64,000 nucleotides of DNA from Euglena gracilis. Taxonomy: Eukaryota. The position numbers and the translations under genes are program-made. Positions 5,929 to 60,743 of the stretch are shown here, one piece after another. Position 1 is the stretch's first letter. The number at the start of each line of letters is the position of its first letter. The stretch is taken from assembly GCA_039621445.1 (NCBI GenBank), contig CP154954.1, positions 48,463,847 through 48,527,846 of the forward strand. The letters run 5' to 3'. Below the pieces are notes generated by a model. That model saw only the letters and a list, made by a program, of their open reading frames with translations. It was not told the origin of the DNA and searched no databases.

Positions 5929-6731
<803 letters not shown>

Positions 6732-6749
6732 CATAGCTGGCACTTCGTT

Positions 6750-16527: not shown

Positions 16528-16568
<41 letters not shown>

Positions 16569-17394: not shown

Positions 17395-17443
<49 letters not shown>

Positions 17444-18356: not shown

Positions 18357-18394
<38 letters not shown>

Positions 18395-19122
18395 TATAAA
18401 TATATATAAATATATATACATATATATACATATATATATATAATAACATATATATAGATATAGATATATATATATATATATATATAATACATATCTCTCC
18501 GCAGGCTCCTCTCTCTCTCGATCTTCTTCGTCTCGCTCTCGTTTCTCTCTTCTCTCGCTCTCGCTCTCCGCTCTCGCCTCCTGTCTGCTGTCTCTCTCTC
18601 TCTCTTCTCTCTCTGTCTATATCATGTATCTACTCTATACCCTCACCCCCCCCCCTAATTGCCCCCCCCCCTAATTTGCTAAATGGGGGGCTGAAGGGGC
18701 CCGGCCATTAACCAAATAGGGGGGGGGGGAGGGGAAATGTTTTTCCTTTTTTTTTATGTACCCTCACCCCCCCCCTAATTGCCCCCCCCCCCCCATTTGG
18801 GCATTTGGGGGGTCTTAAGGGACCCCCCTTAGCCAATAAGGGGGGGGGGGGCCCAATTGGCCAATGGACTTTCCCTTGGCCCACCTTGGCCAATTTCGGC
18901 ACGGGGTCAGAAAACCTCCAAAAACGTCCGTTTCGAAAACGTTAAAATTTGCCGGATAAGAAAAAGTCATGACCAATCCAAAAATGCACAAAAAAATCGA
19001 CCAATTTTGCACACGTCAAAAATTATGGGGTCGGGGTCCTCGAGCCCCCCCCCCCTAATTGTCCCCCCCCCTAATTGGCTAATTGGGGGTCTGAAGGAGC
19101 CCGGCCATTAGCAAAATAGGGG
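15454..19122. repeat. Large fold-back (nested inverted repeat)
   Basis: 15454-15930 is the reverse complement of 18640-19122. AG/TA microsatellite 15965-16565 mirrors TA/CT 18360-18640. 16566-16840 mirrors 18095-18360. Confidence 0.85.
17875..17942 (+). repeat. Degenerate (TTAGGG)n
   Basis: agggttagggttagggttagggattgcggttagggttcagg...ggggttaggg. Confidence 0.7.
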
Positions 19123-21269: not shown

Positions 21270-22123
21270 AAATAAATCCGTCCTTTATGTCGATCACCCC
21301 AACGTGAAATACCCCCGTCCATCCCTCCCTCTTTATGTTCAATGTCACAGTTATGCGCTTGTGATCATCAGACCCTGCCGTCAACACCGTTCCCTCATCC
21401 GGGTCGTCAGAGAGCAAAGTTTCCCAAGTGTGGGGGGGTCCTTCCACGTTGGGGTTTGGTCCCAGTTCACCATGACACAATTCTCCCCAAGTAATTTCTG
21501 CACATTGATGATGTACATGCGAAATCGGTCCACTTTCTGGAGCAGGTTGGTTGGGATCTTTTTCTTCAGTGACGTCACAGACTTTAGACGTAGCCCCCAC
21601 CTCAGTCGAAATCTTCTCACCCAGTCGTCACTTACCTTGAATCGTTCCGTCACAGGAACTGTTTGTAGTGTTTCAACTGCTTGCAACCGGAGCATATACG
21701 TTGTTACTTTCAGACCTTGCACACGTCGAGCTATCACCCATTTCCAGATCTCACTTTCGACTTTTTCAAACGGCGAAGCACGTCCCGCACCAGGTCGCTC
21801 AGCATCCCTTTTCAAGCCCAAATAAAATAAGTGTGCCTCATTTCGCCTCCTCCCGGCTTTCAGAATGGGATCTTCGGTTGGGGGCCCCTGAGAACTCCCT
21901 CGGGCCAACCATTTGCGGAAGTGCTGTGCGCTCAACTGTTCTTCTCCGGTTCTTTTGACCCATTCGGCAACAAATGCAATCTGACTCATTTGCTTGTGCT
22001 TCAAAATCTTCCCCCCAGCATCAGTGACATGTACACGTTCCTTGTAATCTTTCAAGATGGCGGCGACAAACCCAGCATTGTGAATACAATACTTTCCACT
22101 GTTCCACTAACCTACATTGCGGG
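21270..22123 (-). pseudogene. Pogo/Tigger-like DDE transposase remnant (CENP-B-type HTH plus start of DDE domain), frameshifted and truncated
   Basis: VESEIWKWVIARRVQGLKVTTYMLRLQA...FKVSDDWVRRFRLRWGL (CENP-B HTH), then NWDQTP; after a frameshift, TVLTAGSDDHKRITVTL. Ends in AT-rich sequence. Confidence 0.85.
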
Positions 22124-25300: not shown

Positions 25301-26701
25301 ACCCAAAACAAGCCATATTTGAGCCATAAAATGGTCATGTGTTAGGCAAGAAGTGGAGGAACAGGAAAACCAAAATGAGGGGACTTGGACATGGGGGGGG
25401 GGCTGGATCCCACCCCTGTTCACCTTGGGAACTGAACTGCACAGGGGGGGGGGGGGGAGGGGATCACGGGGTCCCATTTTGATGGCGAAACCAACCCGAC
25501 CAAAATCAGCCCAATACTGACAATTTTTGGGACAAGTTTGGCCAATGTTTGGCCATTTTTCGGTTTGTCCAGATGCCAACCACCCCAAAATATGCCCCCC
25601 AAAAAACCTATTTTGGACCCATTTTGGGAACTCCCATTTTGGCCCTAGTGACCGATTTTCCTTTGGCGGTTGGGTTGGATTGGATATGGGGGGGGGATGG
25701 GGAGGGGGCTCGGAACCCCTCTGTTCACTTGGGGAACTGAACTGCATGGGAGTTCTTATTTGGATGGCCAAGTCCCCTATGGTCAGATTGGGCGTCCCAA
25801 GGGGCTTCGGTTTAGGTTGCCGGACCGTTCCTTTAATTTTGCTTCATTTTTTTTTGCAAAATTTTGAAAGAATTGGATTTTCAACCCAATGGCCCCCCAA
25901 AAAACCCAAAGCAGCAGTCTTGACCAGTTTGGGCCCCTTCTGTTGAATAATTTTGGAACGAAGGTGGATTTATCTGGTGGTGAGATTTTCTCTTCTCCAT
26001 AAAGGGATATGAAAGGGCTCTAAAGAAAGGTCTCTGAGTTCATTAAGGGACAAGTGCTCAGCGACTCCCCCCCCCCCGAATGAACCCCCAAAATGAACCT
26101 TCAGGTGGTCCTTAACCAGCATTTATAGGTCATTTGAGGGAGAACCCCCCGAAAAATAATAACCTGGGTCCATTTCATGGGTCTGTTGCTGGAAAGCCTG
26201 AGGGGGCTCTTATTCATGGGGGGGGTCCATTGCATGTATTTTTTTTCAGGAAATTTTTTGTTTTTGAAAATTATTGCATGATTCCCTTTTGAGCACTTAT
26301 TCTCACGTCATTTTAAAGATATATCCGAGATTGTCCACAAGAAAAAGAGGCCAACACCCTGACCCCAGGGGCCATGCATGCAATAAAGCTGTGCTACTGA
26401 TGATGATCATTAAAAATGTTTTCCTTTCACCTCTTCTTGTCATGCCTTCCTTCAGGCCTCCGGCCATTCCTTTCCCACTTTTATGGAGGGGCCCATTTCA
26501 TAGAAGGGCTTTCTCGGGGCCTTTAGGGCCTTTCTCGCAAGGGCCGGGGGGTCTTATTCATGGGGGTCCATTTCATGGATTTTTGCTCGGAACGTCCAGG
26601 GGGGTCTTATTTTTGGGGGGTTATGCAGATGTAGATGTAGATGTTGGTGAAATGCATCATGCAAATGAAAATACAGTTGCAAAAATTTCATTCTGCCACA
26701 G

Positions 26702-28890: not shown

Positions 28891-29187
28891 CAGGCTGCAT
28901 TTTAGTCGGGTGCTGATCCCGGGGGGTGCCTGCCTGGGCAGGCACTCCAAGGCACTCCAAATCCGACCCCCTCCCCCCCGGGGGGGGGGGTAGGGCACAC
29001 GGCCAAAAGTGCCCTATCACAACCCCGGTGCCGAAGGCGCTGGGGAGCCAAAAATGGCCTATTTTCAAAGGAATGTGCCTGGGCACAGGCCGAAATCCGA
29101 CCCCCCGGGGGGGGGGTAGTGCCTGCCTGGGCAGGCACTCACAGGCACTCCGGACCCCCCCCCAGGGTTGGTAAAAAAAACAGCCTG
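28891..29187. mobile_element. hAT-type MITE with perfect 8-bp TSD
   Basis: ggcaggat|CAGGCTG...CAGCCTG|ggcaggat; same family as 47792-48103. Confidence 0.9.
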
Positions 29188-32314: not shown

Positions 32315-34050
32315 CAAGCACCTCTGATGATGCTGGGCGATGCTGGGCGATGCAGGGCGATGCTGGGCGATGCTGGGCGATGCTGGAATTTTGGAGACCA
32401 GAGGTGGGGTTCCGATGCTGGGCGATGCTGGGCGATGCTGGGCGATGCTGGGCGATGCTGGGCGATGCTGGCATTTTTTTTGTACATTTTGAAGAATTAA
32501 ACCCATTTCTGGGATAATTTCCCCACAATTCTCCAGTCTTACACCCATTTTGGCCATTATGGATCAATTTTTGCTAATTTGGGGGTTATTTGTCACTGAG
32601 TTGGCAAATATTAGGCTAATTTGGGTCAATACGAGCATTTTATGGCATTGTGGGCCATTTTGTGCCTTTGTGGTGATTTTGGGTCATTTTCACAATCTTT
32701 TGGCGTTTTTGGGCATTTTTTTTGGTCATTTGAAGCATTTTGGGTCATTTTGGTTGCTTTTTGGGGGCTTTTTGTGGTCAATTTTGGGTTTTTGTGGTCA
32801 TTTTTGGGCTTTTGTGGTTATTTTGGCTAGGTGGCTGGGTGCCAATGGATGAATACTGGACAGACTCTGGACAAGATGCAGATGCTGGACAAGATGCAGC
32901 CGTCGGACAAGATGTACATACCAGACAAGATGCCGATGCTGGGCAAGATGAAGTGGATGCAGATACTGGACAACATGCAGATGGTGGACAAGATGCAGAT
33001 ACTGAATAGATGCCGATGCTGGACAAGGTGCCGATGCTGTACAAGGTGCAGATGCTGGACAAGATGCAAATGCTGGACAACATGCAGATGCTGGACAAGA
33101 TGCAGATGCTGGACAAGAAGCAGATACTGGACAAGATGAAGTGGATGCAGACACCGGACAACGTTGCAGATACTGAGAAGATGCCGATGCTGGACAAGAT
33201 GCAGATGGTGGACAACATGCCGATGCTGGACAAGGTGAAGATGCTGGACAAGATGCAGATGGTGGACAAGGTGCAGATGCTGGACAACGCCCGTTGCAAT
33301 TGCAGGAGTGCCACCCTCCACCCTCCAGCACAACAACTGTTTTGGTCTCTGTTTGTCTGACCAGCAAGGGGCTTGCAACTTGCACTCGACGTTGCCATCT
33401 CATAGGCCTGCACACCACATCTTGTGCTGCCAAAAAGCAGCAAAAGTGGTCAAAAAGTGGTCAAAAAGCAGGCAAAAGTGGGGCAAAGTGGTCAGAAAGC
33501 AGCAAAAGTGGTCAAAAAGCAGGCAAAAGTGGGCAAAGGTGGTCAAATAGCAACAAAGTGGTCAAAAAGCAGCAAAAGTGATCAAAAAGCAGCAACAATG
33601 GCCAAAAGTGGGCAAAAAAGTAGCAAACGTGGGCAAAAGTGGTCAAAAAGCAGCAAAAGTTGTCAAAAGTGGTCAAAAAGCAGGCAAAAGTGGTCAAAAG
33701 TGGTCAAAAAGCAGCAAAAGTGATCAAAAAGCCGCAAAGGTGGTTGGAAATGGGCAAAAGTGGGCAAAAAGCAGTAAAAGTGGTCAAGAAGCAGTCAAAA
33801 TTGGTCAAAAGGCAGCAAATGTGGGCAAAAGTGTTCAAAAAGCAGTCACAGTGGTCAAAAATCAACCAAAGATAGCCAAAAGTAGCCAAAAGTGGGCGAG
33901 AGCGGCAAAAGCAGCAGGCATAAAAGGTACACCTTCAAGGGCTCCAAAGGCGATGCTGGGCGATGCTGGGCGATGCTGGGCGATGCTGAGCGATGCTGGG
34001 CGATGCTGGGCGATGCTGGGCCTAGGGGCATGGATGACCAGAGGTGCTTG
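32315..34050. mobile_element. Non-autonomous hAT element with (GCGATGCTGG)n subterminal arrays and internal minisatellites
   Basis: gatggggg|CAAGCACCTCTG...CAGAGGTGCTTG|gatggggg. Interior has an 18-bp gatgctggacaagatgca array (32845-33290) and an aaaagtggtc array (33430-33900). Confidence 0.9.
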
Positions 34051-34646: not shown

Positions 34647-34880
34647 CGAGCAAGCGTGATGGGGCTTCCTCTGACGAGCGATGGGGAGGAGAAGGACATG
34701 CTGATGCAGCTGGCCATCCGGATCATCAATGAGATGACCACAGCCAAGTCCCGAATCACCGAAATGTTGGCCAGCCCGTTTCTGCCATGGAATGGCCTTT
34801 GGTTGATGATGTCCAGAAGTGGGCTGTTCATGAATGCTAATGACAAGACAATAGCTGCCCTTCTGGACCTTTGCAAAGAC
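34647..34880 (+). CDS. Exon of gene A
   Basis: ttttccatag| RASVMGLPLTSDGEEKDMLMQLAIRIINE...LLDLCKD |gtatgg; phase 0. Confidence 0.75.
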
Positions 34881-35919
34881 GTATGGCATTTGCCCCTGTG
34901 CTCTTTTGTCTCACCCTCAACACCAAAAAGGAGTTAATATTTGAAATTCCTCTTGTCAATTCGAGCTGTTACATCCTAACTGGAAAGGTATGACTACCAT
35001 ATATAGCCGATGTATCCATATTAATGGATATAACAAACTGTACCATGAATACAGTCACATTTTCTGGGAATATACCGAAGGGACTTTTTTCCGAGGGGCA
35101 TTAATTCACTGGTATTTAAATTGTTTTGACGTCTCTACAAAAATGCCTGGAGGGGCAGCCACCCATTACATTTCATTTTTTTTCTGCAGGGGACATCCCA
35201 GTTTTCAGGGGTCTAATTCTGCGGACTCATTTCTGAGGGTTATGATGCTTCGAATAACAGTCTTGTGGATTCCAGTATCTGCAAATTATATGCGTCAGTT
35301 TGCGGAATTTGCTTGGGGGGGGTCGTCCCGACCACCTGCGAGGACTGGACCCTGAACCCAGCGGAGAAATCGCGAAAGGTGGCCGAAGCTGCAAAGGAAC
35401 CCCAGAGAGGCCTCTGAAGCATCGTTTTCAGTTTCGCCAACTCCTTCCAAAGGAAACGTGTCCTGGCCAAACCGTCGGCTGGGCCCAGCAACACTTCCCT
35501 CCTGGGTCGGCGTGGTGATCAAAAAATTCCCGGTTTTGGGGGAGGGGCAGGTGGGGGAGGGGGTCCACCTGTGCAGGAGGGGGACCCCCCCCTCCTGCTG
35601 GTGGGTCGTTGGGAGTCCGACGATCCCCCCTGCCAGGGCTTTCCCAGCTTTGCCGCGGCGGGGCAGCAGCAACGGTTGGATTTCACTTAAATCGTGGGGA
35701 GGGGCTGCATGGTGGCAGAGGAAAGAAATCCAATGTTTTGCTCACATGTCCCGTGCTTGGGACAAAACAGGCTGGCATCCACGGCGTGCCGACATGCAGT
35801 GCCGGTGATGCTGGCAGTCAGATGCCGGGGCAGGGGAAGAAGTGTGCCCGTAGGGACCCACCGCCCCATTGTGGCCCCTACTCCTACTCAGCCTCGTCTC
35901 CGCCGGTGTCCGCCCGCAG

Positions 35920-36066
35920 GAGGGCGGCCGCCTGCCGGCGGTGCTGGACGCCCCCGCCGTGGCCCGGCTGCGCGGCGGGGTGCGGCGCCAGGTGGCCGCC
36001 CTGCTGGACGACGACGAGCTGGTGGCGGACGTGTTCGTCAGCACGCTGCACAGCTACACCGGCCAG
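35920..36066 (+). CDS. Exon of gene A
   Basis: cccgcag| EGGRLPAVLDAPAVARLRGGVRRQVAALLDDDELVADVFVSTLHSYT(GQ); strong GC3 bias. No GT donor; ends at 36060 or 36066. Confidence 0.8.
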
Positions 36067-36215
36067 GCCGCCGTCTCCCCGGGTCTCCGCCGTGCCCCAG
36101 CCCGATCCTGACCCCCCCCCCCCCGACTCCAGAGCAGGCCGATGAGGGGGGGGGGACTCGCCTTTGCGCCACGCCGGACGCACCACCGCGCCGCGCCTGA
36201 CTCACCACCGCGCAG

Positions 36216-36240
36216 TGGCCACAGTGGCTTCGGAAGGGCG
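36216..36240 (+). CDS. Micro-exon of gene A
   Basis: cctgac...cgcgcag| WPQWLRKG |gtgcac; phase-consistent. Confidence 0.45.
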
Positions 36241-37050
36241 GTGCACGTGGAACATTTTTGCAGAGAACCGCTCCTTAGGTATAAAGTCTGGCGTCAAAAA
36301 GGGTCAAAAAAGTTTTCAGCCATTTTTCCTGCAGATTTTTCGTTGATGTGGTGAAATGCATTTTTTAATGGGATATTTTGGGGATTTTTTTTTTAACGCT
36401 TCAGAACCCGCTACAGCTTCCGAGGGGACGGGGACAAAAACTCGCACAAGCTATTCATGTCTTCATAACTGCTCAAATTCCACGCTCTTCCACTTCTGGG
36501 GGTTCCGGTCCAGAGAGTGCGGCTGTTTACGCTCTGCAAGGCCATATGGGAATCCCCAGAACACTATTGGTGGGCAGGGTCGACCGCCCCGCACCCACCT
36601 GTGTGAGGGTATCTGACCCCCCCACTCCACCTGGCCTTCTTGTATTTCCGGGGGCTCCGATTTATTTTCAGCACCAATAGTGTCAGAGTGTGGAGTTCTC
36701 TTTGCAAGGTTCTGTGCTGGGTGGGGTCGGTCCCCTCAACGTCTGCGTGGGGGTCCGCCCCCCCTCCCCTTAAGTCATTCCTACATAGCCCTGCCCTGTA
36801 TGTGTCTCACCACCATTTCCGGAGTGCAACCTGGGAGGAAAGCCAAAAGTTGATATTTTCTTTCGCCCCCCGAAATGTGGCACCAAGTTTTGATTCCCCC
36901 AGACTTGACCTCTGGGAATATGAAACCAGCCAAAAATGCAGGAGAACCCTGGGCGTGCCCGGCGTGTGGCATCTGCCAGTACCCGGTGTCATTCTGGAGT
37001 AACAGATCTCCCCTTTTGTTTGCTTTCTGACACCTTGCAGCACCCCGCAG

Positions 37051-37102
37051 TGTATTTGAAGTCGGTCACAAAGGAATCTCTTTTCCAGGTAGAAATGGAC
37101 AG
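37051..37102 (+). CDS. Small exon of gene A
   Basis: ccccgcag| (V)YLKSVTKESLFQVEMD(R) |gtcgag; phase 1 in, phase 2 out. Confidence 0.45.
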
Positions 37103-37303
37103 GTCGAGAATTCTGCAAAATATGAATGCTTCCGGACTTCCAGTTCAGTTGTCCCCAACTCACTTCCCTCTTTGGGACACCCTAGCACACCCCAATAAAA
37201 GTATACAGGTTTTTTGATGCCAGGTCTGCTGGTTTTCAAAAGAATACCATTTGCACAACTGGCCCACGCAACTCCGTCCCAACTGCGAGTTTGGTCTCCC
37301 AAG

Positions 37304-37400
37304 ACGGAGGCAGAGGGTTGAGGGACGGCGGAATGACTGGGCGAAGGCGAAGGAGGCGGGCGACATGGAGGTCCAGAGCGCGCTGGAGGTGTTGCTGCAG
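37304..37400 (+). CDS. Exon of gene A
   Basis: cccaag| RRQRVEGRRNDWAKAKEAGDMEVQSALEVLLQ |gtgtgg. Confidence 0.75.
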
Positions 37401-37505
37401 GTGTGGCCCCCACAGTGCTGCCGCGGCCGCTCCCGGTCCCGCCGACCGATTGCCCGGCGGCACGGTTGATGTGTCACTTTGGGATCCTCATTTTTTGCCT
37501 GGCAG

Positions 37506-37585
37506 GTATTTGCCCAGGAAGTGATCCTCCACATGTGCAAGGGAATTGAATGGGACGACGACACCGTGCCCGAGACCTTCATCCT
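37506..37585 (+). CDS. Exon of gene A, 5' half of an exon split by a TIR element
   Basis: ttttttgcctggcag| VFAQEVILHMCKGIEWDDDTVPETFI(L). Confidence 0.7.
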
Positions 37586-37588
37586 GTG

Positions 37589-37859
37589 CAGGGACAGGAA
37601 AGTATTCCGGTGCTAAATGAACCGGAATTAACTGGAATAAAAATTTCTGGAATATCCGGAAAACTCCGGAACATCCGGAATAAAAAGATGAAAATGATGG
37701 AGGGGTTTTGTCGTTTTTATTATGGACTTCCAAGCTTCACTTTCACTGCATGCATGGCCCTGACCTCACTGAGAAAAGAAGGCAGTGATTTTTGTGCCAC
37801 GTAAACTCAGTGCAGTGATTTTTGATGTGTGTTGTGGGTGATTTTTGTGGGTGGTTTTG

Positions 37860-37902
<43 letters not shown>

Positions 37903-40508
37903 GGTGCTTTTTTGGGGGGCTTTTGCGGTGGGGGGGGTTTTGGGGTGGGGTTCCGGCGGTTTGCTTTGTTGGTTGGTGGCAGGCTGTTTCGGGGTTTTGG
38001 TGGTTTTTTTGGGGTTTGGGTCGCCTTCATCAATGATCCAGTCAGATTTTTTTTTTCCACTCTCGCATTTTTGTGCCATTATTTCAAAGGGGTCCATTTC
38101 TCCAAAAACAAAAACTTTCCAGCAACAACCCATAAAATGGACATGAATAAGTCCCCCCTTCGGGCTTTCCAGCAATCGACCCATGAAATGGACCCGGGGT
38201 CTTATTGGGGGGGGGTAGATCAAAAATTTAGTAAGTGCTTTCGGAAATACTTGGCTGACTTTGGTCAATTTGAGCTGACAGCATTATCAGCTGTTTTATG
38301 ACATTTTGGTGGTCACAAGGTTTGAGAGCATTGTTGGCCAGAGAAATGCAGAAAATGCATCGCCCAGCATCCAAACCCCATCTGTGGTCTCCTAAAATAC
38401 AGCATCTCCCAGCATCGCCCGGCATCGCCCAGCATCACCAGAGGTGCCGGGTCCCCATTGATCACTGATGCATGATGATAAAAAGATTTTCCTTTCACCT
38501 CTTCTTTTTGTGCCTTCTTTCAGGCCTCCGGCCATTCCTTTTCCACTTTCATGGGGGGGTCCATTTCATCATCCAAAAATCCATTTCATGTATTTTTTCT
38601 CGGAAGGGCCAGGGGGGGTCTTAATCATGGGGGTCCGTTTCATGGATTTTTGCTCGGAACGTCCAGAGGGGGTCTTATTTTTTGGGGGGGGGTCCATTTT
38701 TATGTGGGGGTCTTATTTTGGGGGGTTGATTACAAAAACCAAATCAGCCAATTACCCAGAAAAATCACAAAATGGTCAAAAGTGGCAAAAATTAAGCCAA
38801 AATGGCCAAAATGGGTGAACATGGCCATTTTGTGTTATATGAGGCCATTTTTCACCTGACACCCAACTTTGTTGCACTTCACCCAGGTTCGTTTGCACTT
38901 CCCGTCAATTTGTTTGCAATTAACCAGAAAACGTTTGCACTTCACCCCATTCGTTCCCACTTTATCACAAAAATATGTGCACACTGTACCAAGATCATTT
39001 GCATTTTTTTTCAGAAAAATTTTGCACTGGATCTGGTGTTTTGCACAGTTGCCCTTTGAAACTCCAGCTGGAATGCATCTTTTTCCATAGATGCAGTGTG
39101 AGGTTTCTTTTCATTGAACAAAATTAAAATAACGGAGGGCAAATTTTCCTGAACAAGTGCAATTACTTTTGGGACGCAATGCAAAAAATTTGCCAGCCGT
39201 GGGAAAATGCATTTGAAGGCCGAGGCAAAAATTCTGACATGGTAGGGCAAATATTTTTGCCAGCCGTGGGCGAAAATTTCTGACGCTAGGTGTAGTTTTG
39301 GGTTTTTTTGTGTCATTTTGGCTAGACTTGTAGGCAATGAATGCGGACACTGGAGTGGATGCCGTAAATGGATGCAGATATTGGAGTGGATGCAGATGCT
39401 GGAGTGGATGGATGCTGGAGTGGATGGAGCAGATGCAGATACTGGACTGGATTGGATGTACTGGAAGCACTGGAGCATGCACGAGTTGGTACAGATAATG
39501 GAATGGGATATACACCGGAGTTGATGCAGTGGATGCAAGTATTTGAATGGATGGAGTGGATGAGAAGATCCTGGAGTTGATAGAAGTACTGGAGTGGATG
39601 CGATGCAAATATTGGAGTGTATGGTGTGGATGTAAATACGGGAGTGGTTGCAGATGATGGATTGTACGGAGGTCATGGAGTGGATGGAGGTATTGAAGTG
39701 GATGGAGGTACAGGAGTTAATGCCCTGGATGCAGGTATTGGAGTTGTCGAAAGTACCAGAGTGGATGAAAACCACTATGAAAGTTTGTGTATTTCGGAGG
39801 AATCCCCAGACAGATGGAAACGTGATCCACTTTGTTTAATGGGATCCCTGCATCCAAAACTGCAGCAGTGTTCACCATTAGTGCCATCTTTGTTCAAATC
39901 CCATTGGAACTGAACTCCCGTTCACATATTCACTGAAAGAGCTGCCAATTGATGAATTATGATCAACGACAAACCCACATTTCAGCTTGTTCAAACTTCC
40001 CTTGGAAGATCTAAACCCGAAATAATTTTCCTGTGTCCTAATTCTTTGCGTACCGAAATTGTTTTGCAGGGGGGAAGGCCAAAAAAGATCGGTCCAAGTT
40101 GTTTTGCCCTCAACAAGGAAAAAAGGGGGGGAATCGATGCATCTTTACACATGTGTGTCTGAGGCACACACACACATTTTTTTTGGATTGGCCAGTGCTC
40201 CTAAATTGACAAATATTACCAATTTGACAAGTTGTTGAACGACCGTGTCAGTGCCACAAAGCAAGCTCTTAACAAAGAAACAGCCGGTTGTTCATTGAAC
40301 GTGATGTTTCATAGTTAAGCTGGGCAACCAAGGAATTAAGTTAAAGTTAAGGAATGGATTCCCGAAACCCGAGAGAAGCTTTCCAAGTCTTTTCTCAGCA
40401 CAAAGTGGCCGGAAATTATTCTGGAACATCTGGAATAAATTCCGGAATATTCCGGATTAACACCCCGAAATAAAAATTTGGACCAACTGGAATATTTTCC
40501 TGTCCCTG
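37589..40508. mobile_element. 2.9-kb TIR element in coding sequence; candidate non-conventional intron
   Basis: tcctgtg|CAGGGACAGGAAAGTATTCC...GGAATATTTTCCTGTCCCTG|tcctgtg (19/20 TIR, 7-bp TSD); clusters of ccggaa motifs at both ends. Confidence 0.88.
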
Positions 40509-40512
40509 TCCT

Positions 40513-40535
40513 GTGGCAGGAGATCCTCATCTCTG
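40513..40535 (+). CDS. Exon of gene A, 3' half of the split exon
   Basis: Continues (L)WQEILIS then |gtcacg in phase 1, matching the acceptor at 42040. Confidence 0.55.
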
Positions 40536-41561
40536 GTCACGACATAATGAACATCAAATTCCAGCAGTGGTTGTTTCACAGCATTTGGGGGCTCAACTTT
40601 TAAGGCAACAGCAAGACAAATTGATATCCGAAAATGATATCCTGGTCCGATGGGGATAGAGGATCAAATACCAGCATTTTTTTTGTCACAAAACCTTATT
40701 GCAGACTGTTGCATTTTCGCATTGTTTCCGTTGCTTTTCTTCCGTTGCTTTTTGTATTTTATGTGTGCCAAGTTGCAGTGGCCAGTACTTTTTTAAAGCA
40801 AAAGGAACAAGCATGGATGTCTATTTCGACAATTAAGCACGACATGCATTTCGACAACCACGATGTCCTGTCATTGTCATATTTGTACCCAGAAGTTTCA
40901 GCCTTTGTAGGGGGGATATTCAGGCCCTGATAAACTGAACCGGAGATTCCCGAAACTCGAATATCCTGAATAACCGTTCTGGACCAATGAAATTTTTGTG
41001 GACACGTAGCAGAAGGAAGGCTGTTGGAAGGGGGGTACGGGAAAATGCAGGCACTTTTTATTGAATTTTGTCTTTTTTTTATGGCAAAGTCTTTTTTCGT
41101 TGTTTTTTTCCGAGTCTTCCAGAAGGAAAAAATGACTAGGAAGCATTTGGCATTTCGCGCCAGACTTGCTCCGTGGCAACATTTTATTTTTTATGTCATT
41201 TTTGAAACCAAAGTGGGAATTTTTGGAATCAAGGATTCCTCAAAATTTTTACAATCAGGCTATTGCTTAAGGGTTCGAAGCACCCCAGGGAGGGGGGAAG
41301 CTGGAATGCAGCTAGTCTAAATTTGGCTGGTGGAAATTCTAGTGAACCCCCCCGGGGGGGGTCCACTACCAGGGCCAGCCAGTGGAATTTTTTTCCAGTG
41401 ACCAGCACAAAGTGCTGAATTTTTTTGGACTCTCAAAACTTGCCACATAATTCCCATTTCTGGCCAACTTTGTTGTTTTTTTTGGATAAAATCAGTCTCA
41501 TTTCCACCTCGGCAAGCAGCGTCGGATGATTTTTTTTTCCAGTCTGGGGGGGACTCCGGAC

Positions 41562-41845
41562 TAGGGGTTGTTTTTTTAGTCTTGGACCCCGGAGGGGGGG
41601 TGGGGGGGTTTGGCTGAGCCCGGGTGGGGGGGTCCCCCTGGGGACCCCCGGCCCCGGAGGGGATATACTTTTCGGCGCCAAAGGCACCGAAATTTTTTTA
41701 ACAAAGGTGCTATTTTGAGCATTTTCGCGATTTTTGACCATTTTCGGGGAAAACTGAGTGGGTCCCCCGGGACCCCCCCCCCTTCCCAGGGGGTGGTGGG
41801 TGGGGGGGACCCCCCTCCCCCCGGTTTTTTTTAAAAAAAACCCTG
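41562..41845. mobile_element. hAT-type MITE with perfect 8-bp TSD
   Basis: ctccggac|TAGGGGTTG...AAACCCTG|ctccggac; same family as 50146-50418 and 57098-57340. Confidence 0.85.
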
Positions 41846-42039
41846 CTCCGGACCCCCCGGGGGGGAGGGGTCTAGCTGGTGGCTTTTGTGTCTAGCAAAA
41901 TGGCTATCCAGTGGAACCCCAGGGTTCCCAAGGAATAGTCTGGTTACAATCATTTTTTTTGAATTCCTGGTGCAACCCCAAAGTGGTTGTTTTGTTTTGT
42001 TGAGAAGCCAAAGAATCTGCTGTCCCAGTTCCCCTTCAG

Positions 42040-42150
42040 TCACTATGCTGTGTGCCGATGAGCGTGGCTGGAAGAAGCTGCTGAAGAAGCATTTGCTCTC
42101 CCCCAACACCAAAGTGACGGCCAAGAGCTTTGTGGAGCTGTTTGAGTACG
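42040..42150 (+). CDS. Exon of gene A
   Basis: ccccttcag| (V)TMLCADERGWKKLLKKHLLSPNTKVTAKSFVELFEY(G) |gtgtgt. Confidence 0.8.
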
Positions 42151-43650
42151 GTGTGTGTCCGGGAGGAAGTTATAGGCGAAGGGACAGTGGCTGGTTCATC
42201 GTTAATTATACTTTGAGGGGGTGGGGGGCCGCCAGTCGAGAAGACCGCCAGCCCCTTATTTCTTTTACTTCTTTGCTGATTTCTTTCTTTGCTTTACTGG
42301 CTTTCCTGACCGGGTTGAAGGGAACCACCCCAACTCGGTGGTGGCGTGCACCAGGTGATCCGGCATAATGTTGTCCAGCTTTGCAAGATCACCTCTGGGT
42401 CGGCATCTTTGCCGGAGGGAGTTAATACAAATTTCCAAGAAAAATGCGGAAACAATTGAAAGACCTCTCCCCACTCCAGGTGCTGAACAGTACAAACATG
42501 TGGCCCATGTGACCCATTTCACCCAATGGCAAAAATTGGTTTTTTCACACAGTTTCAGTCTTTTTGTAACCTGTGTTTTTTTGTGGTTTTTTTATGTTTT
42601 TTTTCCTGGCGATTTTTCGATTCCAGCTGGAATCGAAAAATTCCAGCAGAATCGGGAAAAAAGAATGAAAAATTTTAACCTTGAAAAATTCTGCTCTTTG
42701 AACCCACTTTTCGCTGAAATAAGTTTTTTTTCCATCCTCTGACATTTTTCGAGTGTATTTTTACCAACAAATTGCATTTTTCGAATGAGCCTGTTCCCAA
42801 ATGTTAGCCCAAAAATACATCAAAATGAAATCAACATTTTTTTGCATAATGTGTAGTTGTTTGCAAAATTTGCGGTTTTCCCCTTTGCGTTTTTGTTTGT
42901 CGCGTTTTCGATGGTCTCAGTTAAGCCACCCCCCCCCCCAAGGTTGTGCCGTTCTCTGACTTCTGAGATTGTGGAAACGTGCCTTCGCTGGCAAAAGCTT
43001 CTCGCAGTCAGGGCTCCGCCAAAAGCCTGGACAAGGTAGTGTTGCTTGGCGTCGATTCGTGGCAACCGGACCCCTCCCCCGCCCATGGCGGTGCACCAAA
43101 AATGAATGCACGACCCAGCGCATTGTGCGTTGAAAGGTGTCAGGTGCTCATTCAGATCAATCCAGAATTTGCATTTTTTTGGGGTCTCCGGGTAACGGAA
43201 TCAGCCCCCTTTTTCATTTGGTTTTCGAAGCGATTATTTGGGCAGTCAAATTGACCCTTGCTGAAAACTCGAATTCTTTTTCGGACTGCCTCCGAGAAGT
43301 GTGGCGAAAACGGAGAAGAAAATTCCCTGGCCATGTGTCAGGCCAACCCGCTCCCGGGGGGGGGAGGGTCCCAGCAAATGTGGAATCCTAACTTTTGTAA
43401 CGATGTGCATGTTGCAGTTACCATTTCTTTCAAATCGTCGACATCAAATTAGTCCGTGAATTTGTCCGTGATTTTTTCCCCTCTGTGCAAATGGGCAGAA
43501 AAAAAACGGACAGGTTCTGACAGGTTCGGAAGCAGATGATCTGCCACTGAGTGCAGTCGCCGTGTTTGATATTGAAGAATGTTTCTCTTTATAACACAAA
43601 TAACACAAAAAACACAAATTCCCGTTCAGTTATACGTTCCCAACATTCTC

Positions 43651-43903
43651 CTGCAAAAGTGGTTACCTTAGCCTCCGCGGAGCCTCCTCGGTGCCTCCGC
43701 GGAGGCTGGTTACCCTGAGCCTCCGCGGAGGCTGGTTATTTCAGAGCCTCCGCGGAGGCTGGCGATCTCGGAGCCTCCGCGGAGGCTGGTTACCTTAGCC
43801 TCTGTGGAGGCTGGTTTCCTTTGCCTCTGTGGAGGCTCCGCGGAGACTGGTTACCTTGAGCCTCCGCGGAGGCAACCAAAAAGTTAGGATTCCACTTTTG
43901 CAG
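43651..43903. mobile_element. MITE-like unit filled with an array of palindromes
   Basis: TIR CTGCAAAAGTGG...CCACTTTTGCAG; interior repeats of AGCCTCCGCGGAGGCT at ~26-bp spacing. Confidence 0.75.
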
Positions 43904-44088
43904 CAGACCCCCGGGGGTACACGTCATGGAGGGGGGAGCACGTTGGCCCTGACAGTTTTCTTGGGCCAAGCCACCCAACGAAATTCCTGGAAGGGAAGGG
44001 AGGGGGGCATTTGACCCCAACAAACCAGCTTGGAGGGGGAAGGGGAATACTGCGGGCGCGCCGACGAGTGTGCCCCCGGCCGCCCCAG

Positions 44089-44167
44089 GGGGCGTGGCGG
44101 ACGTGGCCCTCCGCCTGGACACGGGCAGCGCGCTGCAGACGCTGGTGGCGGACTTCGTCTACACCGT
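44089..44167 (+). CDS. Exon of gene A
   Basis: gccccag| (G)GVADVALRLDTGSALQTLVADFVYT(V); phase 1 matches 42150. Confidence 0.8.
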
Positions 44168-44245
44168 GCGCAGGGCATTTCGGAAGCCGGACCCCACTCG
44201 TCCCCCCCGGCCGGGGGGGGGGTCCTTGAGGAATTCCCTGACCGT
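44168..44245 (+). other. Candidate euglenid-type non-conventional intron (78 nt) corresponding to a MITE plus one TSD copy
   Basis: T|gcgCAGGG...CCCTGaccgt|G: CAG at +4..+6 and CTG at -8..-6; flanks accgtgcg/accgtgct; inner ggacccc/ggggtcc stem. Confidence 0.8.
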
Positions 44246-44280
44246 GCTGCGGCGGGTGAACGACCTGACAAAGGAGACCC
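44246..44280 (+). CDS. Exon of gene A
   Basis: LRRVNDLTKET then |gtgggg in phase 1, matching the acceptor at 45672. Confidence 0.65.
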
Positions 44281-45671
44281 GTGGGGAGGACGACACAGTC
44301 CCCACGCACCAGCTCGATGTGGACTAGCGTGGCCCCCCGCAACTCCCTCCAAACCACCCACCACCCACCCGCCATTCGTGATGCCCTCGCCAAGCGATGC
44401 ACTGGACTGTGCATGCGTGACCAGCTTCGAGTCGAGGGTTGTGTTCCTGGTGCATGTGGTGAGACAATGGCAGTGTTCTTCAAGGCCTTCGAGCTTTTGA
44501 CAAGTCGATTGGATTTATTTTTCTTTCTAATCTGAGAATGGTATTTTGACAAGACCACAAAAGCACAAATTGGACCTTTTGAGTCGAACATGAGATTTCG
44601 GTCAGTGTTTGATCCCTCTTGGTGGGTTCTCTTCAGATTTTGGGCTCCAGAATCCCAAGCAGCAGTTAAAGATGAATTTTCGAAGACATCTTCAAAATCA
44701 GCTTCAGCATCAGCTTAGGCATTTGGGTTAGGATTTGTTTGTTTGGTTTTTTTGAAAGTGAAAACAATATCAACAAATTTTTCCTTCAGGCTGTCAGAGA
44801 TGTGACAAGCTTTTTTTGCTGAACCACAGAAGTTCTGAAATCCACAAAGGAATAAACCCCCTCCCAAATTATAACCCCCCTGGGTTATTATTTTTCGCCC
44901 AAAATCCTGGCCCAAGGGGGTATTATTTAGGGGGGGGGTAATAGCACCCCAAATTTTTCGAGATTTTTTGAAGTCCCATAGGATCCAAAATAGCACCCAA
45001 AACCCCCTTTGGTGTCATTTTTTTTGTGCTTTCTCATGAAATTTAGCATTTTAGCAGGCGAGATGATCCAGAAAAATTGATTTGTATTTTATTTGCAATT
45101 TTTTTATTTGTAATTTATCGTCAGCAATTATTATTTTTACCCAAATTCTCAGGGCAAAACCTGGGCCGTCGACCGGAAAATTAGGGGGTATTGCTCGGTC
45201 GGCGAAGTCTGACTCCGACGGGGGGGGGTATTACTTGGGGGGAGGGTTTTCCGAAGTTAGTGGAGACGAAAAAAAATACGTTTACATAACCCAAAGCAAA
45301 TTCGCAAAACGGAAAATGCTGAAAATGCGGATTCTTTTTTTTCTTTGCTCCATGAACACACACACACACACACACACACCCACCCACACACCCACATACA
45401 CACACAAGCACACACGCACACACACAACACACACAAAAGAAAAGCCATTTGGGAGCAATGAAAGAAAATGGCGAATGGTTAACCTCAAGTGTGTAGATTC
45501 TCTGCCCCTGCGCCGGTCAAGGACGTCTCAAAGCGCAGCCCCCCCCCCCCCCCTGGAGGCCGTGGGAACAAGAAAGCAATTTTTTTTGGCTCATTCCAAC
45601 TTGTTTTTTCTGGCGGGGGGCAGTTGGTGCTCCGAGGGACGGGCTGCGGATGCTCTGCGCCTCGTCCCCAG

Positions 45672-47791: not shown

Positions 47792-48103
47792 CAGGCTGTT
47801 TTTAAGGTGGTGCCGACCCCACTCCGGGGGGGGGGATGCCTGCCTGGGCAGGCACTCCAAGGCACTCCCGATCCGACCCCCCCACCAGGGGGGGAGGTGG
47901 TTAGGGCACACGGCCAAAAGTGCCCTAGAACAGACCCCGGCGCCGAAGGCGCCGGGGAGCCAAAAATGGCCTATCTTCAAAGGAATGTGCCTGGGCGCAG
48001 GCCAAAATCCACCCCCTCCCCCCAGGGGGGGTAGTGCCTGCCTGGGCAGGCACCCCAAGGCACTCCGGACTCCCCCCCCCCGGGATTGGTAAAAAACAGC
48101 CTG
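47792..48103. mobile_element. hAT-type MITE with perfect 8-bp TSD
   Basis: gttgttat|CAGGCTG...CAGCCTG|gttgttat. Confidence 0.9.
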
Positions 48104-54361: not shown

Positions 54362-57014
54362 CAGGCACCTATGGCCGACCAGGGCCGACCAGGGCCGACC
54401 AGGGCCGACCAGGGCCGACTATGATTTTCAGGACCCCCGTAGGTGGGGGTTCCGACCAGGGCCGACCAGGGCCGACCAGGGCCGACCAGGGCCGACCAGG
54501 GCCGACAGGGCCGACCGAAGGGGAATGGATGAAGGAATTCGGCAGCTTTCCCTCTGAACCACCCAAGCTTTGCAAGACACTTGATCACTTTTGTTTGTCT
54601 TTGTCCTCCAGCTTTTCCAATGGCGAAGAATCATGCCTGCACGCGGACTGTGGCCCAATGGGTCGCTTGGGCGGAGGCAGATGGGATGGTCGGCATTGCA
54701 GCGGACAGCAATGATCCAGGTGCGCCAAAGGTAATGCTCTTGTTTCTTGTCTGCTTCTCTGTGTAGGGAAAGTTTATTGCACCGTTTGCGCAAGGTCGTA
54801 TGTACCCACAGCAAGCGCTTTGAAGCAGCATTGCTATGGATATTTCAAAGGAAGTGGGCCAGACAGGCAATTTGTAGAGAGTGAACACTCCAAGAAGGTA
54901 AAAAAACGGAAGGATCGTGAAGAAGCAATGCCTGCTCCGGTTTCTCAAGTCGCTGTGAATTCGGTTCCACAAAACATCATCATCCAGGTGCTATTTTGTG
55001 CAAAAAATAGAAATTGGATATTTTTCCCTCAAGGTTCAAAGTGCTTTGGAAGCAAAACCGCTCACAGATGCTATCGAGACCCCCAAGAAAAAGGCCAAAG
55101 GGACTCTGGACCATTTTGTTTCTAAAGGAAACAAGGAGGATCAATTCAAGAAAGATTTGGTTGCTGCCGCAAATATTCCTCTTGAAAAAGTAAAAACAAA
55201 AGACAACGGTGAAAAAACCTTACTGAGAAAGTTCTTTGAGAAATATGTTCGACTGGATGGCGAAGAAGTTCACCTTCCTGATCCTATCAACCTGCGAGGG
55301 AACCACGTACCCCATGTAATGGCCGATGGTATAACGTTCATTCTTGTGTGATGTCCTTGTTTGTATGTATCCACAGGCGTGCATAAGCTCAGGGACATTA
55401 TCATGAAAGGGTCCTGGTTTGTGGTGATTGAAGCCGACGAAACAGATGATCCACGACCAGATAACCACTATGTTGTTTCTGTCGCCATGACTTTGCTGTC
55501 AAAAGGCGGTGAAGCAGTTGCACCCAAAAAGTTTCATATCAAGTTATTCTACCCAACGAGCGTGGACCAGAAAACTTTGAGCTCCATCATTGACCAGGTG
55601 TTAAGACTCCTTGATTTTCTCCTAATTTACTTTTGTAGGCACTTCGTGAGCTTCACGCGAGAGCATTGCCGGGCTTTATGACCTCATGAAGTCGTCCGCC
55701 AAGACCATCCAAATTCAGTTATGTTTTGTTGTTCAAGCTTTGAAGCCTTTGTACACAGCCATCAAAACATTGCAAAAAGACAGTGGCGGAATTCATGACA
55801 TCTTGGGAGAATTTGCAAGGTTCATCACAATATTTGCCTTGCGGATTCTCTTGTATCGTGCTTTGTACAGGCTAAAGGCAAATTTCCAGGAAATGCAAGA
55901 ACGAGGACAGTGGCCGCCAGAGGTCGAACAACTTCTGGAAAGGCACAGTTCGGATTACATCAACACAATGCAAAAACTGATGAAGGCTTGTTGCAAGGTA
56001 TCTGATTTGTCTAATTTGTGATGCTGTGCTGCATTTTGGGGCGCTTTGGCCCAATCCAAGCCAAAGCCGTTTCCCCCTCGCTCATTATGTTTGCATTGCA
56101 GGCGATCGTTGACAAGATGGACAACATCTTGGTGAAAACCGTGAACGCATTTGCAGACAAGCAAGATGTCGCCCACGAAGGTGATGTGTGAGCGCGTTCC
56201 GCTGGTTAATGCCACAGAGTGGGAACGTTATATCACTCTGCCTTCCCAACAACCTCCACCATCTTCCACAGCTGGTCGCATCAACTGGTGGATGTCACAA
56301 ATTTACCATTCCTTCGTTGGTTTGGAATGAAATGTGGGGTGGTTGTGCATCTCTTGCCAAAGCGGGGTCAGCCATTTTTTTTTGGAATGTGTGGCAAAAT
56401 CACCGCTGGTGATTTAGGGGGCCATTGCGGTTTCAACATTTGGGTTGTGAGCAATGGTTTGGTTCCGCATCGCTGATTTTCCCTCGCTTGCACCCGTTGC
56501 CATGGCCTATCTGCAGGCTCCACGTTCATCTGCTCAAATAGAGCGATATTTCTCACTGCTCGGTCACACAAAAGGCTGGTATGAATGAGGATGCAAATGA
56601 TTGAAATTTTCGATTACGTCAAGAATTGTTTTTCCATTCCAGCTTTTTTTCCATTCAAACATCGGATCGCTTGAATATGTCTGATACGACGCTCACCTCC
56701 TTAGCCTTCATTTATATGAACAAGAGCTTGTTTGACATCTCTGCGTGAAGAGCCGCACTTTCACCTTTGCATTTTTGTTTTGTGCTCTGATGGCTCAGCT
56801 TATGGGGCATTTCCTTTTGATCTTGGCGAGACAAGTCAGAAAATCATTGCATCTCTTCACATTTTTTCTGTGACGGATACCCCCACCTATGGCCGACTAT
56901 TGGCCGACCAGGGCCGACCAGGGCCGACCAGGGCCGACCAGGGCCGACCAGGGCCGACCAGGGCCGACCAGGGCCGACCAGAGCGCCAAAATGGGAAGTG
57001 ACCATAGGTGCCTG
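54362..57014 (+). mobile_element. hAT DNA transposon with (CCGACCAGGG)n subterminal arrays
   Basis: gtggtgct|CAGGCACCTATGG...CCATAGGTGCCTG|gtggtgct: perfect 13-bp TIR and 8-bp TSD; encodes a transposase. Confidence 0.95.
54620..56748 (+). pseudogene. Intron-containing CGGBP-like hAT transposase, probably internally deleted
   Basis: Exons 54620-54719, 54767-54987, 55034-55328 and 55377-55597 splice in phase via GT-AG. Motifs: KVYCTVC...ALKQHC (Zn finger), ANIPLEK (CGGBP-like), ADETDD (first catalytic D), APRSSAQIERYFS (56517-) and RLNMSDTTLTSLAFIYMN (hAT C-terminal dimerisation region). Frame breaks near 55655. Confidence 0.88.
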
Positions 57015-57616: not shown

Positions 57617-57828
57617 CAGGGCGCTGTTAAACAAATTTTGACCCCCCACTTTTGGGGGCTTTTCTGATCTTTGATTTTTTTGCCACCTGGTTCGACCCAG
57701 GTTGGCTTTAGTTCCAGCCCTGGGAAGGGGGGGGGTGTCAGCCAGCAGCCTTTTTCCAGCCACCCCAAGTTTTCCAGCCTCTGAGCTGGACCCCCTGCCC
57801 CCCGGGGGGGTCCTTAAGCAACGCCCTG
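57617..57828. mobile_element. hAT-type MITE related to the 78-nt candidate intron
   Basis: gttgaggt|CAGGGCGCTG...ggtccttaagCAACGCCCTG|gtcgaggt. Confidence 0.85.
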
Positions 57829-60539: not shown

Positions 60540-60743
60540 GGTCCGACCCCCACAGGCTCAGCGTCGCCCACCACGAGCGCCACGGGGACGGACAGCCAGA
60601 CGGAGAGTGGCAGCGAGAGCGGCACAGCCTCCGCCACCCGCAGCGTGACCCTGGCAGCGACCAGCAGCGGGACGCCGACGGTGACGGGTAGCGCCACAGT
60701 CTCCCCGAGCCGCAGTGAGACGCGCACAGCGAGCGTCACGGAG
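60540..60743 (+). CDS. Ser/Thr-rich mucin-like exon B, copy 1
   Basis: gacgccag| GPTPTGSASPTTSATGTDSQTESGSESGTASATRSVTLAATSSGTPTVTGSATVSPSRSETRTASVTE |gccggg. Confidence 0.6.

What the first reader, a model, noticed from the sequence alone, without database searches (positions are those of the whole stretch)
37582..40515. 2.9-kb TIR element splitting an exon; precise removal restores the frame (7-bp TSD variant)
Seen: ~20-bp TIRs and a perfect tcctgtg duplication. Deleting the element plus one TSD joins ...TVPETFIL-WQEILIS, and the next donor is in phase with exon 42040. The obvious GT(37586)-AG(40519) alternative shifts the frame. Inference: a very long non-conventional intron that has itself gained nested insertions. 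Its 3+4 spacing implies tolerance of a 7-bp-TSD family, departing from the usual 3+5 rule.
Basis: partly seen in the sequence, partly recalled or inferred. Interest (0 to 1): 0.82.

Follow-up and report, generated by a model that had tools for sequence, protein, structure and literature searches.

The report
Transposon-made nonconventional intron, RNA-confirmed
A 2.9-kb transposon-like insert sits inside a coding exon of a Euglena-type genome and is cut out of the RNA exactly, restoring the uninterrupted gene: a clear, slightly off-rule example of an already described kind of intron.

Summary
A 2,920-bp element (37589-40508) has 23-nt inverted ends (21 of 23 complementary) and a perfect 7-bp duplication TCCTGTG on both sides. 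It has 17 raw RNA-seq reads at 16 starts, plus one contig in each of two other runs, and none in the DNA-like run. With the other RNA-supported junctions the frame stays open for 183 codons.

It is a euglenid-type nonconventional intron made by a non-coding TIR transposon. The paired ends (-45.9 kcal/mol) define the cuts. CAG...CTG plus 7 bases are removed, not the usual 8 (3+5).

Elsewhere in the window, four similar CAGG-ended elements have exact 8-bp duplications, so this is a single 7-bp exception. No 7-bp family was shown.

The published Euglena splicing code (PMC12501133) already records partial tolerance of a 4-nt 3' spacer.

Verdict: a new member of a known kind, of moderate interest.

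The parts
37582..37588 (+). left copy of the 7-bp target-site duplication TCCTGTG (exonic/spacer)
   Evidence: the RNA joint is slidable by 7
37589..40508 (+). 2,920-bp non-coding TIR element (CAGGG...CCCTG)
   Evidence: The longest internal ORF is a low-complexity frame over an 18-nt tandem repeat. No Pfam scan of the element's own ORFs was run
37589..37611 (+). left terminal inverted repeat
   Evidence: I3: 23 nt, 91% complementary
37605..37680 (+). left subterminal cluster of 7 CYGGAA motifs
37943..39437 (.). interior mosaic of high-copy repeats. 38103-38698 resembles 26155-26620. The minisatellite 38357-38439 resembles 32346-32470 and 33949-34020
   Evidence: X20 depth 933 to 66,700 against about 45 in the flanks
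39336..39769 (.). degenerate 18-nt tandem repeat inside the element
   Evidence: D1, D2, D6; weak match to 33082-33159
40409..40492 (+). right subterminal cluster of 7 CYGGAA motifs
40486..40508 (+). right terminal inverted repeat
40509..40515 (+). right copy of the TSD TCCTGTG
37586..40512 (+). the intron as most likely cut (3 nt before CAG, 4 nt after CTG, next exon starts with G). The register is inferred; any of 8 registers gives the same mRNA
   Evidence: joint 37581>40509, both=7; register from the published code
37502..37581 (+). upstream exon part, preceded by a GT-AG intron of 105 nt
   Evidence: joints
40509..40534 (+). 26-nt exon between the focal intron and the next nonconventional intron (40535-42056)
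   Evidence: joints
34659..44440 (+). host gene. Exons: 34659?-34880, 35920-36060, 37341-37396, 37502-37581, 40509-40534, 42057-42149, 44088-44162, 44241-44440. Stop at 44325-44327; poly(A) near 44440
   Evidence: joints and loose ends. The start codon is inferred only

Best explanation
A non-autonomous class II (TIR) transposon inserted into a coding exon and duplicated 7 bp of target. In the pre-mRNA its inverted ends pair into a long stem that brings the two exon ends together. The euglenid nonconventional-intron pathway, whose machinery is unknown, then removes the stem-bounded RNA plus 7 flanking bases. The most likely cuts are 3 nt before CAG and 4 nt after CTG, in front of a purine. The mRNA therefore equals the pre-insertion sequence. 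Shown: the TIRs, the TSD, the subterminal repeats, exact removal in RNA, and the restored frame. Inferred: the cut register (3+4), transposition as the origin, and the pathway. I infer a euglenid from the intron code only; the run labels are coded ('organism A').
For: TIR and TSD. Subterminal motif clusters at both ends. RNA joint 37581>40509 (2,927 skipped, slidable by 7): 17 raw RNA-seq reads at 16 starts in X21, one contig each in X1 and X8, none in X20. None of the 8 possible registers has GT/GC..AG borders (read). The frame is open for 183 codons across all RNA-supported junctions and the other two frames are closed. End duplex -45.9 kcal/mol, against -17.0 (sd 3.2) for 300 shuffles. Junction read count (17) is in the range of the gene's other five junctions (6-23). 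Depth inside the intron is about 0.5 against about 19 in the last exon. The same window holds four CAGG-ended TIR elements with exact 8-bp TSDs, where 0.045-0.22 are expected. Two of them are copies of one ~300-bp MITE, 89% identical, with homology ending at the TIRs and different TSDs. So such elements did transpose in this genome. Intron 44163-44240 of the same gene is a 70-nt CAG..CTG element with a 7-of-8 TSD, removed with 8 extra bases. The published code N3-CDG...CH'G-N5-6|R, a strict 5' spacer, and about 20% activity with a 4-nt 3' spacer come from PMC12501133 (abstract, sections 8 and 11).
Against: The CTG lies 4 nt, not 5-6 nt, from the exon under the only register with a 3-nt 5' spacer, so the strict published code is not met. 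The knock-in assay gave only about 20% transcript for such a spacer, yet I see no sign of poor removal here. No other copy of this element and no transposase for it were found: there is no genome, and the only transposase-like Pfam hit in the window is a Tc5-type HTH. X1 and X8 are only guessed to be RNA. Two expressed haplotypes exist (44295/44297: 12 of 28 X21 reads carry other letters), and short reads do not link the junction to the window's own haplotype.
Confidence: 0.88

Rival explanations
1. The duplication was the usual 8 bp, and one base next to a TIR end was later lost, or an end base of the element was lost. The intron now works with a shortened 3' spacer; there was never a 7-bp-cutting event.
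For: Four of the 5 exact-TSD elements in the window have 8 bp. Three more have 7 of 8. An 8-nt direct repeat at a recently gained intron is in print (PMC4770533, passages). The intronic spacer bases are free to change.
Against: The two copies are identical over all 7 bases. In the 8-bp register the flanks do not match (read). Such a deletion needs an immediate shift of the 3' cut to keep the frame. Intron 40535-42056 of the same gene also has a spacer sum of 7.
Confidence: 0.2
2. The junction reads come from an allele or paralogue that never received the element. The window's allele is interrupted and not spliced.
For: Two haplotypes are expressed (places 35995, 44295, 44297). Contigs can hide rare variants.
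Against: No joined form in the DNA-like run X20 (0 contigs), and its depth does not drop across the left junction (44.8, 46.0, 58.5). A second version of the element interior exists (X1 contig 39038-40420, 11 differences). A contig runs from the element's right end through the exon into the next intron carrying other letters that X20 also holds (40391-41155), so both versions appear to carry the element. Junction counts are not halved, and intron depth is about 3% of exon depth.
Confidence: 0.04
3. The direct repeat and the insert arose through double-strand-break repair (filler DNA with microhomology), as proposed for a recently gained Euglena intron, and not through transposition.
For: PMC4770533 (passages) offers this reading for 8-nt repeats. 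The interior is a patchwork of repeats.
Against: Filler DNA does not explain 23-nt inverted ends, matched clusters of 7 subterminal motifs at both ends, or a MITE family with the same kind of ends and different 8-bp TSDs in the same window.
Confidence: 0.05
4. It is removed by the ordinary spliceosome at cryptic sites.
For: A pyrimidine-rich run and CAG|G lie at the 3' end, and a GT at 37586.
Against: The observed skip is 2,927, not 2,934. No register of the observed junction has GT/GC..AG. GT..AG use would shift the frame.
Confidence: 0.03

Closest known systems
Nonconventional introns of euglenids (Milanowski et al. 2014, 2016; Nomura et al. 2025, PMC12501133)
   Same: Non-GT-AG borders, CAG near the 5' end and CTG near the 3' end, ends that pair, direct repeats that make the border 'slidable', a purine at the start of the next exon, and coexistence with GT-AG introns in one gene. 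Lengths up to several thousand nt are reported (PMC11282704, passages).
   Different: The CTG is 4 nt rather than 5-6 nt from the exon, so the removed flank is 7 rather than 8 bases. Transposon hallmarks are unusually intact: 23-nt TIR, subterminal repeats, perfect TSD. The length is 2.9 kb, against an E. gracilis mean given as slightly over 500 bp (PMC11170887, passage).
MITE-like origin hypothesis for these introns, and the 8-nt direct repeat at a recently gained gapC intron of E. agilis (PMC3935182, PMC4770533; passages)
   Same: Inverted ends plus a flanking direct repeat at an intron absent from the mature RNA.
   Different: Here the repeat is 7 bp, and the element is long, low-copy and carries subterminal repeats. 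The window also supplies a two-copy MITE with 8-bp TSDs as direct evidence of mobility.
Introner elements (Micromonas, Aureococcus, dinoflagellates; summarised in PMC11282704)
   Same: A DNA transposon whose insertion creates an intron, with the TSD contributing to exact restoration of the message.
   Different: Introners supply or co-opt GT/AG sites for the spliceosome. Here no canonical sites are used and the TIR stem sets the cuts.
hAT-type DNA transposons and the maize Ds element acting as an intron (Giroux et al. 1994, seen only as a reference; hAT features recalled, not tested)
   Same: Short TIRs, subterminal repeats, and 8-bp TSDs in the sister elements of this window.
   Different: No transposase found. 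The focal TSD is 7 bp. Ds is removed by the spliceosome at cryptic sites and usually imprecisely (recalled).

Membership tests
Euglenid nonconventional intron (broad definition) | Absent from mature RNA, with no GT/GC..AG borders in any compatible register | tested here: met
   Joint 37581>40509. The 8 registers read TC..TG, CC..GT, CT..TC, TG..CC, GT..CT, TG..TG, GC..GT, CA..TG.
Euglenid nonconventional intron (broad definition) | Intron ends pair into a stable stem that brings the junctions together | tested here: met
   -45.9 kcal/mol against a shuffled mean of -17.0, sd 3.2; run of 23 pairs including G-U.
Euglenid nonconventional intron (broad definition) | Excised as a circular RNA, after the conventional introns, by a non-spliceosomal route | not testable with these tools
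   No back-joined reads were listed; 74 joints were not shown. The circle junction would in any case be register-ambiguous.
Strict noncanonical splicing code N3-CDG...CH'G-N5-6|R (PMC12501133) | CDG at +4..+6 after a 3-nt spacer | tested here: met
   GTG + CAG at 37586-37591 in the 3+4 register.
Strict noncanonical splicing code N3-CDG...CH'G-N5-6|R (PMC12501133) | Complementary CH'G followed by a 5- or 6-nt spacer | tested here: not met
   CTG at 40506-40508 is followed by 4 nt before the exon if the 5' spacer is 3; the sum is fixed at 7 by the RNA joint. By my reading it would fall in that paper's 'CAG-nnn' class, 42,699 of 649,158 E. agilis introns (Dataset S7).
Strict noncanonical splicing code N3-CDG...CH'G-N5-6|R (PMC12501133) | Purine at the first base of the downstream exon | tested here: met
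   G at 40513 in the 3+4 register. The 2+5 register would give T.
Class II TIR transposon (non-autonomous) | Terminal inverted repeats directly flanked by a target-site duplication | tested here: met
Class II TIR transposon (non-autonomous) | Further copies at other sites with other TSDs | not testable with these tools
   No genome held. No second copy in the window. End depth in X20 suggests one to a few copies. Met for a sister MITE family.
hAT superfamily (features recalled) | 8-bp TSD | tested here: not met
   7 bp at the focal element. 8 bp at four other CAGG-ended elements in the window.
hAT superfamily (features recalled) | A cognate hAT transposase | tested here: inconclusive
   I gave Pfam 14 translated stretches: 12 picked from the 66 ORFs of 170 aa or more, plus 2 host-gene exons. 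Only one hit, a Tc5-type HTH at 21381-22103(-). The window is a tiny sample of the genome.

The most novel reading that the evidence does not exclude
The 3+5 spacer rule of Euglena nonconventional splicing is the RNA image of the 8-bp duplication made by one transposon superfamily with CAGG ends. The focal intron, and the degenerate 3+4 intron 40535-42056 next to it, would then show a natural subclass that descends from 7-bp duplications and is removed efficiently in vivo. That would mean the 3' cut is not measured as a fixed 5-6 nt from the stem but is set so that exactly one duplication copy remains.
Probability: 0.2. Interest if true: 0.55.

Novelty: new member of a known kind. Interest (0 to 1): 0.35.

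Why it matters
The origin of euglenid nonconventional introns is still called unclear in the papers I read, with 'MITE-like elements' as a hypothesis. This locus shows the full transposon signature (TIRs, subterminal repeats, intact duplication) on an intron whose exact removal is seen in RNA. It lies beside mobile sister elements with 8-bp duplications that match the 3+5 spacer rule. It is also a natural, apparently efficient intron with a 4-nt 3' spacer, a configuration that gave about 20% activity in the published knock-in assay. It is therefore a ready test case for what sets the 3' cut. It does not change the picture of this intron class.

Tried and rejected
**Searches that gave nothing**
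- Whole-genome search for other copies: no genome is held for this window.
- RNA holders by index: no listed holder is on record as RNA. The evidence comes from laying reads.
- Host gene identity: word-seeded searches with single exons (35920-36060; 34659-34880; 'longer' lengths) found nothing at E <= 0.01. Pfam on two exons found nothing. This is weak evidence because the pieces are 31-74 aa. I did not hand in the joined protein, and I did not run the HMMER representative search or the Atlas.
- Rfam at gathering thresholds: 0 matches in the window.

**Analyses that did not help**
- A first TIR+TSD scan without end constraints was swamped by AT microsatellites and by long palindromes whose flanks mimic even-length duplications. 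It was replaced by the constrained scans.
- Discrete nested insertions with their own ends: the inverted pairs 37838-37872/38734-38768 and 38183-38195/38557-38569 have no flanking duplication that I could see. Left open.
- Open frames across the empty sites of the other elements were uninformative, because long chance frames are common in this G+C-rich DNA.

**Literature**
- Frequency of 4-nt spacers in nature: Datasets S7 and S8 of PMC12501133 do not give spacer lengths. The SI appendix is a PDF and could not be read, so it may hold this.
- Four literature searches returned no paper that assigns these introns to a named transposon superfamily. One search, which included the term 'hAT', returned 5 papers; I read passages of only one of them (PMC12621601), which speaks only of MITE-like transposons.
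- None of the passages I read states a 7-bp duplication. That is all I can say about what is in print.

Full report
**Observation.** The sequence is as described. A 2,920-bp stretch (37589-40508) begins CAGGGACAGGAAA and ends with its reverse complement. The inverted arms run 23 nt with 21 matches (37589-37611 / 40486-40508). The 13-nt core occurs nowhere else in the window at up to one mismatch. Directly outside the arms lies TCCTGTG on both sides (37582-37588, 40509-40515). I scanned the window for inverted pairs that start C[A/G/T]G and end with the complement. Of 479 pairs with at least 10 of 12 matches, one had an exact 7-bp flank repeat (this one; 0.135 expected when flanks are re-dealt), four had exact 8-bp repeats (0.045 expected) and one a 5-bp repeat (0.635 expected). 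Each terminal 112 bp also holds seven CYGGAA motifs, 62.5 per kb against 1.66 per kb in the window; no other 112-bp window has more than three. The two ends therefore belong to one element of transposon build.

**RNA evidence.** No whole genome is held, but public runs of the same coded organism could be laid on 35850-44800.
- The raw RNA-seq run X21 (about 5% of it read) shows a joint from 37581 to 40509 that skips 2,927 bases, with 7 letters fitting either side. It has 10+7 reads at 16 start places.
- Two contig sets guessed to be RNA (X1, X8) each have one contig with the same joint.
- The DNA-like set X20 has none, and it has a contig running through the filled left junction (37088-37790).

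The same data give the gene's other junctions:

| Junction | Skipped | Type | X21 reads |
|---|---|---|---|
| 36060>37341 | 1,280 | non-canonical | 13 |
| 37396>37502 | 105 | GT..AG | 6 |
| 40534>42057 | 1,522 | non-canonical | 23 |
| 42149>44088 | 1,938 | GT..AG | 19 |
| 44162>44241 | 78 | slidable by 7 | 18 |

Joined by these coordinates, the exons give one frame open for 183 codons up to the stop at 44325-44327. The other two frames are closed. An upstream exon ends at 34880 and is followed by a GT..AG intron. A poly(A) tail starts near 44440.

**Efficiency.** In X21 the nine bins wholly inside the element have a mean depth of about 0.5. The bin holding the last exon has 12.6 over 200 exonic of 299 bases, about 19 (my arithmetic). 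The other introns' bins lie at about 0.05-0.3. The focal junction count (17) is within the range of the others (6-23). I see no sign of poor removal, though these are small numbers from steady-state RNA.

**Is an empty allele the source?** Two versions of the gene are expressed: at 44295 and 44297, 12 of 28 X21 reads carry other letters. However:
- X20 shows no joined form and no drop in depth across the junction.
- A second version of the element's single-copy interior exists (X1 contig 39038-40420, 11 differences).
- An X1 contig runs from the element's right end through the 26-nt exon into the next intron (40391-41155). It carries letters that X20 also holds as a minority.

Both versions therefore appear to carry the element. 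Contigs can switch between haplotypes, so I keep a small probability for this rival.

**Anatomy of the element.**
- It has no credible coding capacity. The longest frame lies over an 18-nt tandem repeat.
- Its middle (about 37943-39437) consists of very high-copy repeats, with X20 depth 933 to 66,700 against about 45 in the flanks. Relatives lie at 26155-26620, 32346-32580 and 33082-34020 in the window.
- I could not delimit nested elements with their own duplications, so 'nested insertions' remains plausible but unshown.
- The end regions sit at 46-170 in X20, so the element itself is single- or low-copy.

**Context in the window.** Four other elements have CAGG-type inverted ends and exact 8-bp duplications: 2169-2343, 28891-29187, 47792-48103 and 54362-57014. 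At a looser threshold (2,967 pairs with at least 9 of 12 matches), four more pairs have 7 of 8 matching, against 1.8 expected. These are 41256-41942 (inside the next intron), 44171-44240 (the 78-nt intron), 57617-57828, and a CTG-ended pair at 15396-15901 that may be chance. The elements at 28891 and 47792 are 89% identical over about 300 bp. Their homology stops at the inverted ends and their duplications differ, so this is a mobile MITE family.

Among the four RNA-verified non-canonical introns of this gene, the best end-pairing register gives these flank sums:

| Intron | Flank sum | Ends |
|---|---|---|
| 36061-37340 | 3+5 = 8 | CAG..ATG |
| 44163-44240 | 8 | CAG..CTG |
| Focal intron | 7 | CAG..CTG |
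| 40535-42056 | 3+4 = 7 | CAC..GTG, 11 of 14 pairs |

Eight is thus the norm among young elements here. The focal element is the only intact 7-bp case. A second, old intron with a sum of 7 hints that 7 is not unique.

**Mechanism.** The ends form a duplex of -45.9 kcal/mol (shuffled mean -17.0, sd 3.2). The published code for Euglena (PMC12501133: abstract and sections 5, 8, 11, 12 read) is N3-CDG...CH'G-N5-6|R. In that work:
- Changing the 5' spacer by one base in either direction abolished splicing.
- A 3' spacer shortened to 4 nt left about 20% of the transcript.
- A purine is preferred at the start of the next exon.

Only the 3+4 register of the focal intron has a 3-nt 5' spacer and a purine (G at 40513). 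The cuts cannot be read from the products, because all eight registers give the same mRNA and would give the same circle. So the steps are inferred as follows: transposon insertion with a 7-bp staggered cut (or 8 bp with later loss of one base), stem formation, and cuts at 37585|37586 and 40512|40513.

**Comparison with what is known.**
- Reviews and primary papers already describe these introns as having inverted ends (CAG at +4..+6, CTG at -8..-6), frequent TSD-like direct repeats, lengths from dozens to several thousand nt, and a proposed MITE-like origin (PMC11282704, PMC3935182; passages).
- An 8-nt direct repeat at a recently gained intron is reported and read as possible break repair (PMC4770533; passages).
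- 'Slidable' introns are the majority in E. agilis.
- In E. gracilis a CCAGG motif at the 5' end and a mean intron length slightly above 500 bp are reported (PMC11170887; passages).
- Four searches returned no paper that names a transposon superfamily for these introns. One search included the term 'hAT' and returned 5 papers, of which I read passages of only one (PMC12621601); it speaks only of MITE-like transposons. None of the passages I read reports a 7-bp duplication.
- Datasets S7 and S8 of PMC12501133 do not list spacer lengths, and its SI PDF could not be read.
- From memory, 8-bp duplications with short TIRs and subterminal repeats fit hAT-type elements. I found no such transposase. 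Of 14 translated stretches scanned against Pfam (12 chosen from the 66 long ORFs, plus 2 host exons), one matched a Tc5-type HTH.

**Verdict.** The observation and the predicted junction are confirmed by RNA. The thing is a well-preserved member of a known class, with a one-base departure from the usual flank length that published experiments already show to be tolerated in part. A '7-bp family' is not shown. Interest is moderate. It is a clean natural test case for what sets the 3' cut, and a good illustration of the transposon origin, not a new kind of system.

**Limits.**
- The organism is coded; I infer a euglenid from the intron code only.
- The host protein has no detected relatives (short queries, weak evidence).

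Noticed in passing
window 2169-2343; 28891-29187; 47792-48103; 54362-57014: Four elements with CAGG-type inverted ends and exact 8-bp target duplications (CATAGCTG, GGCAGGAT, GTTGTTAT, GTGGTGCT). 0.045-0.22 are expected by chance. The second and third are two copies of one ~300-bp MITE, 89% identical.
   Followed up: partly
window 40535-42056: The next intron is also nonconventional, with degenerate CAC..GTG inverted ends and a 3+4 flank sum. A GT(40536)..AG(42039) alternative would be in frame, adding 18 nt. It is not among the listed RNA joints.
   Followed up: partly
window 41256-41942: A 687-bp CAGG-ended element with a 7-of-8 duplication (TTTACAAT / GTTACAAT) sits inside that next intron: a nested insertion in an intron.
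   Followed up: no
window 44163-44240: A 78-nt nonconventional intron in the last coding exon: a 70-nt CAG..CTG element with a 7-of-8 duplication, removed in RNA (18 reads in X21).
   Followed up: partly
window 35995, 44295, 44297: Two expressed versions of the host gene. 12 of 28 X21 reads carry other letters at 44295/44297, and 3 of 26 at 35995. The DNA-like contigs show only the window's letters there.
   Followed up: partly
window 21381-22103 (-): A 240-aa open frame with a Tc5-type transposase DNA-binding domain (PF03221, E 1.2e-09): a pogo/Tc5-like transposon remnant.
   Followed up: no
window about 15470-19100: A large inverted-repeat structure. Arms are perfect or near-perfect over up to 148 nt (e.g. 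16693... / ...18245) around AT/TG microsatellites.
   Followed up: no
window 43651-43903: Inverted 12-mers enclose tandem GCCTCCGCGGAGGCTGG-type units. DNA depth is 4,200-6,900 against about 45, so this is a high-copy repeat inside the GT-AG intron.
   Followed up: no
window about 60000-64000: Near-identical long open frames recur at about 1,255-bp spacing (e.g. 61630-62259 and 62884-63513 on the minus strand), which suggests a tandem repeat of about 1.25 kb.
   Followed up: no
window 54362-57014: Removing this 2.65-kb element plus one duplication copy leaves a frame open across all 900 bases examined on the minus strand (294 aa). It may be another exon-splitting element, but long chance frames are common here.
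   Followed up: no
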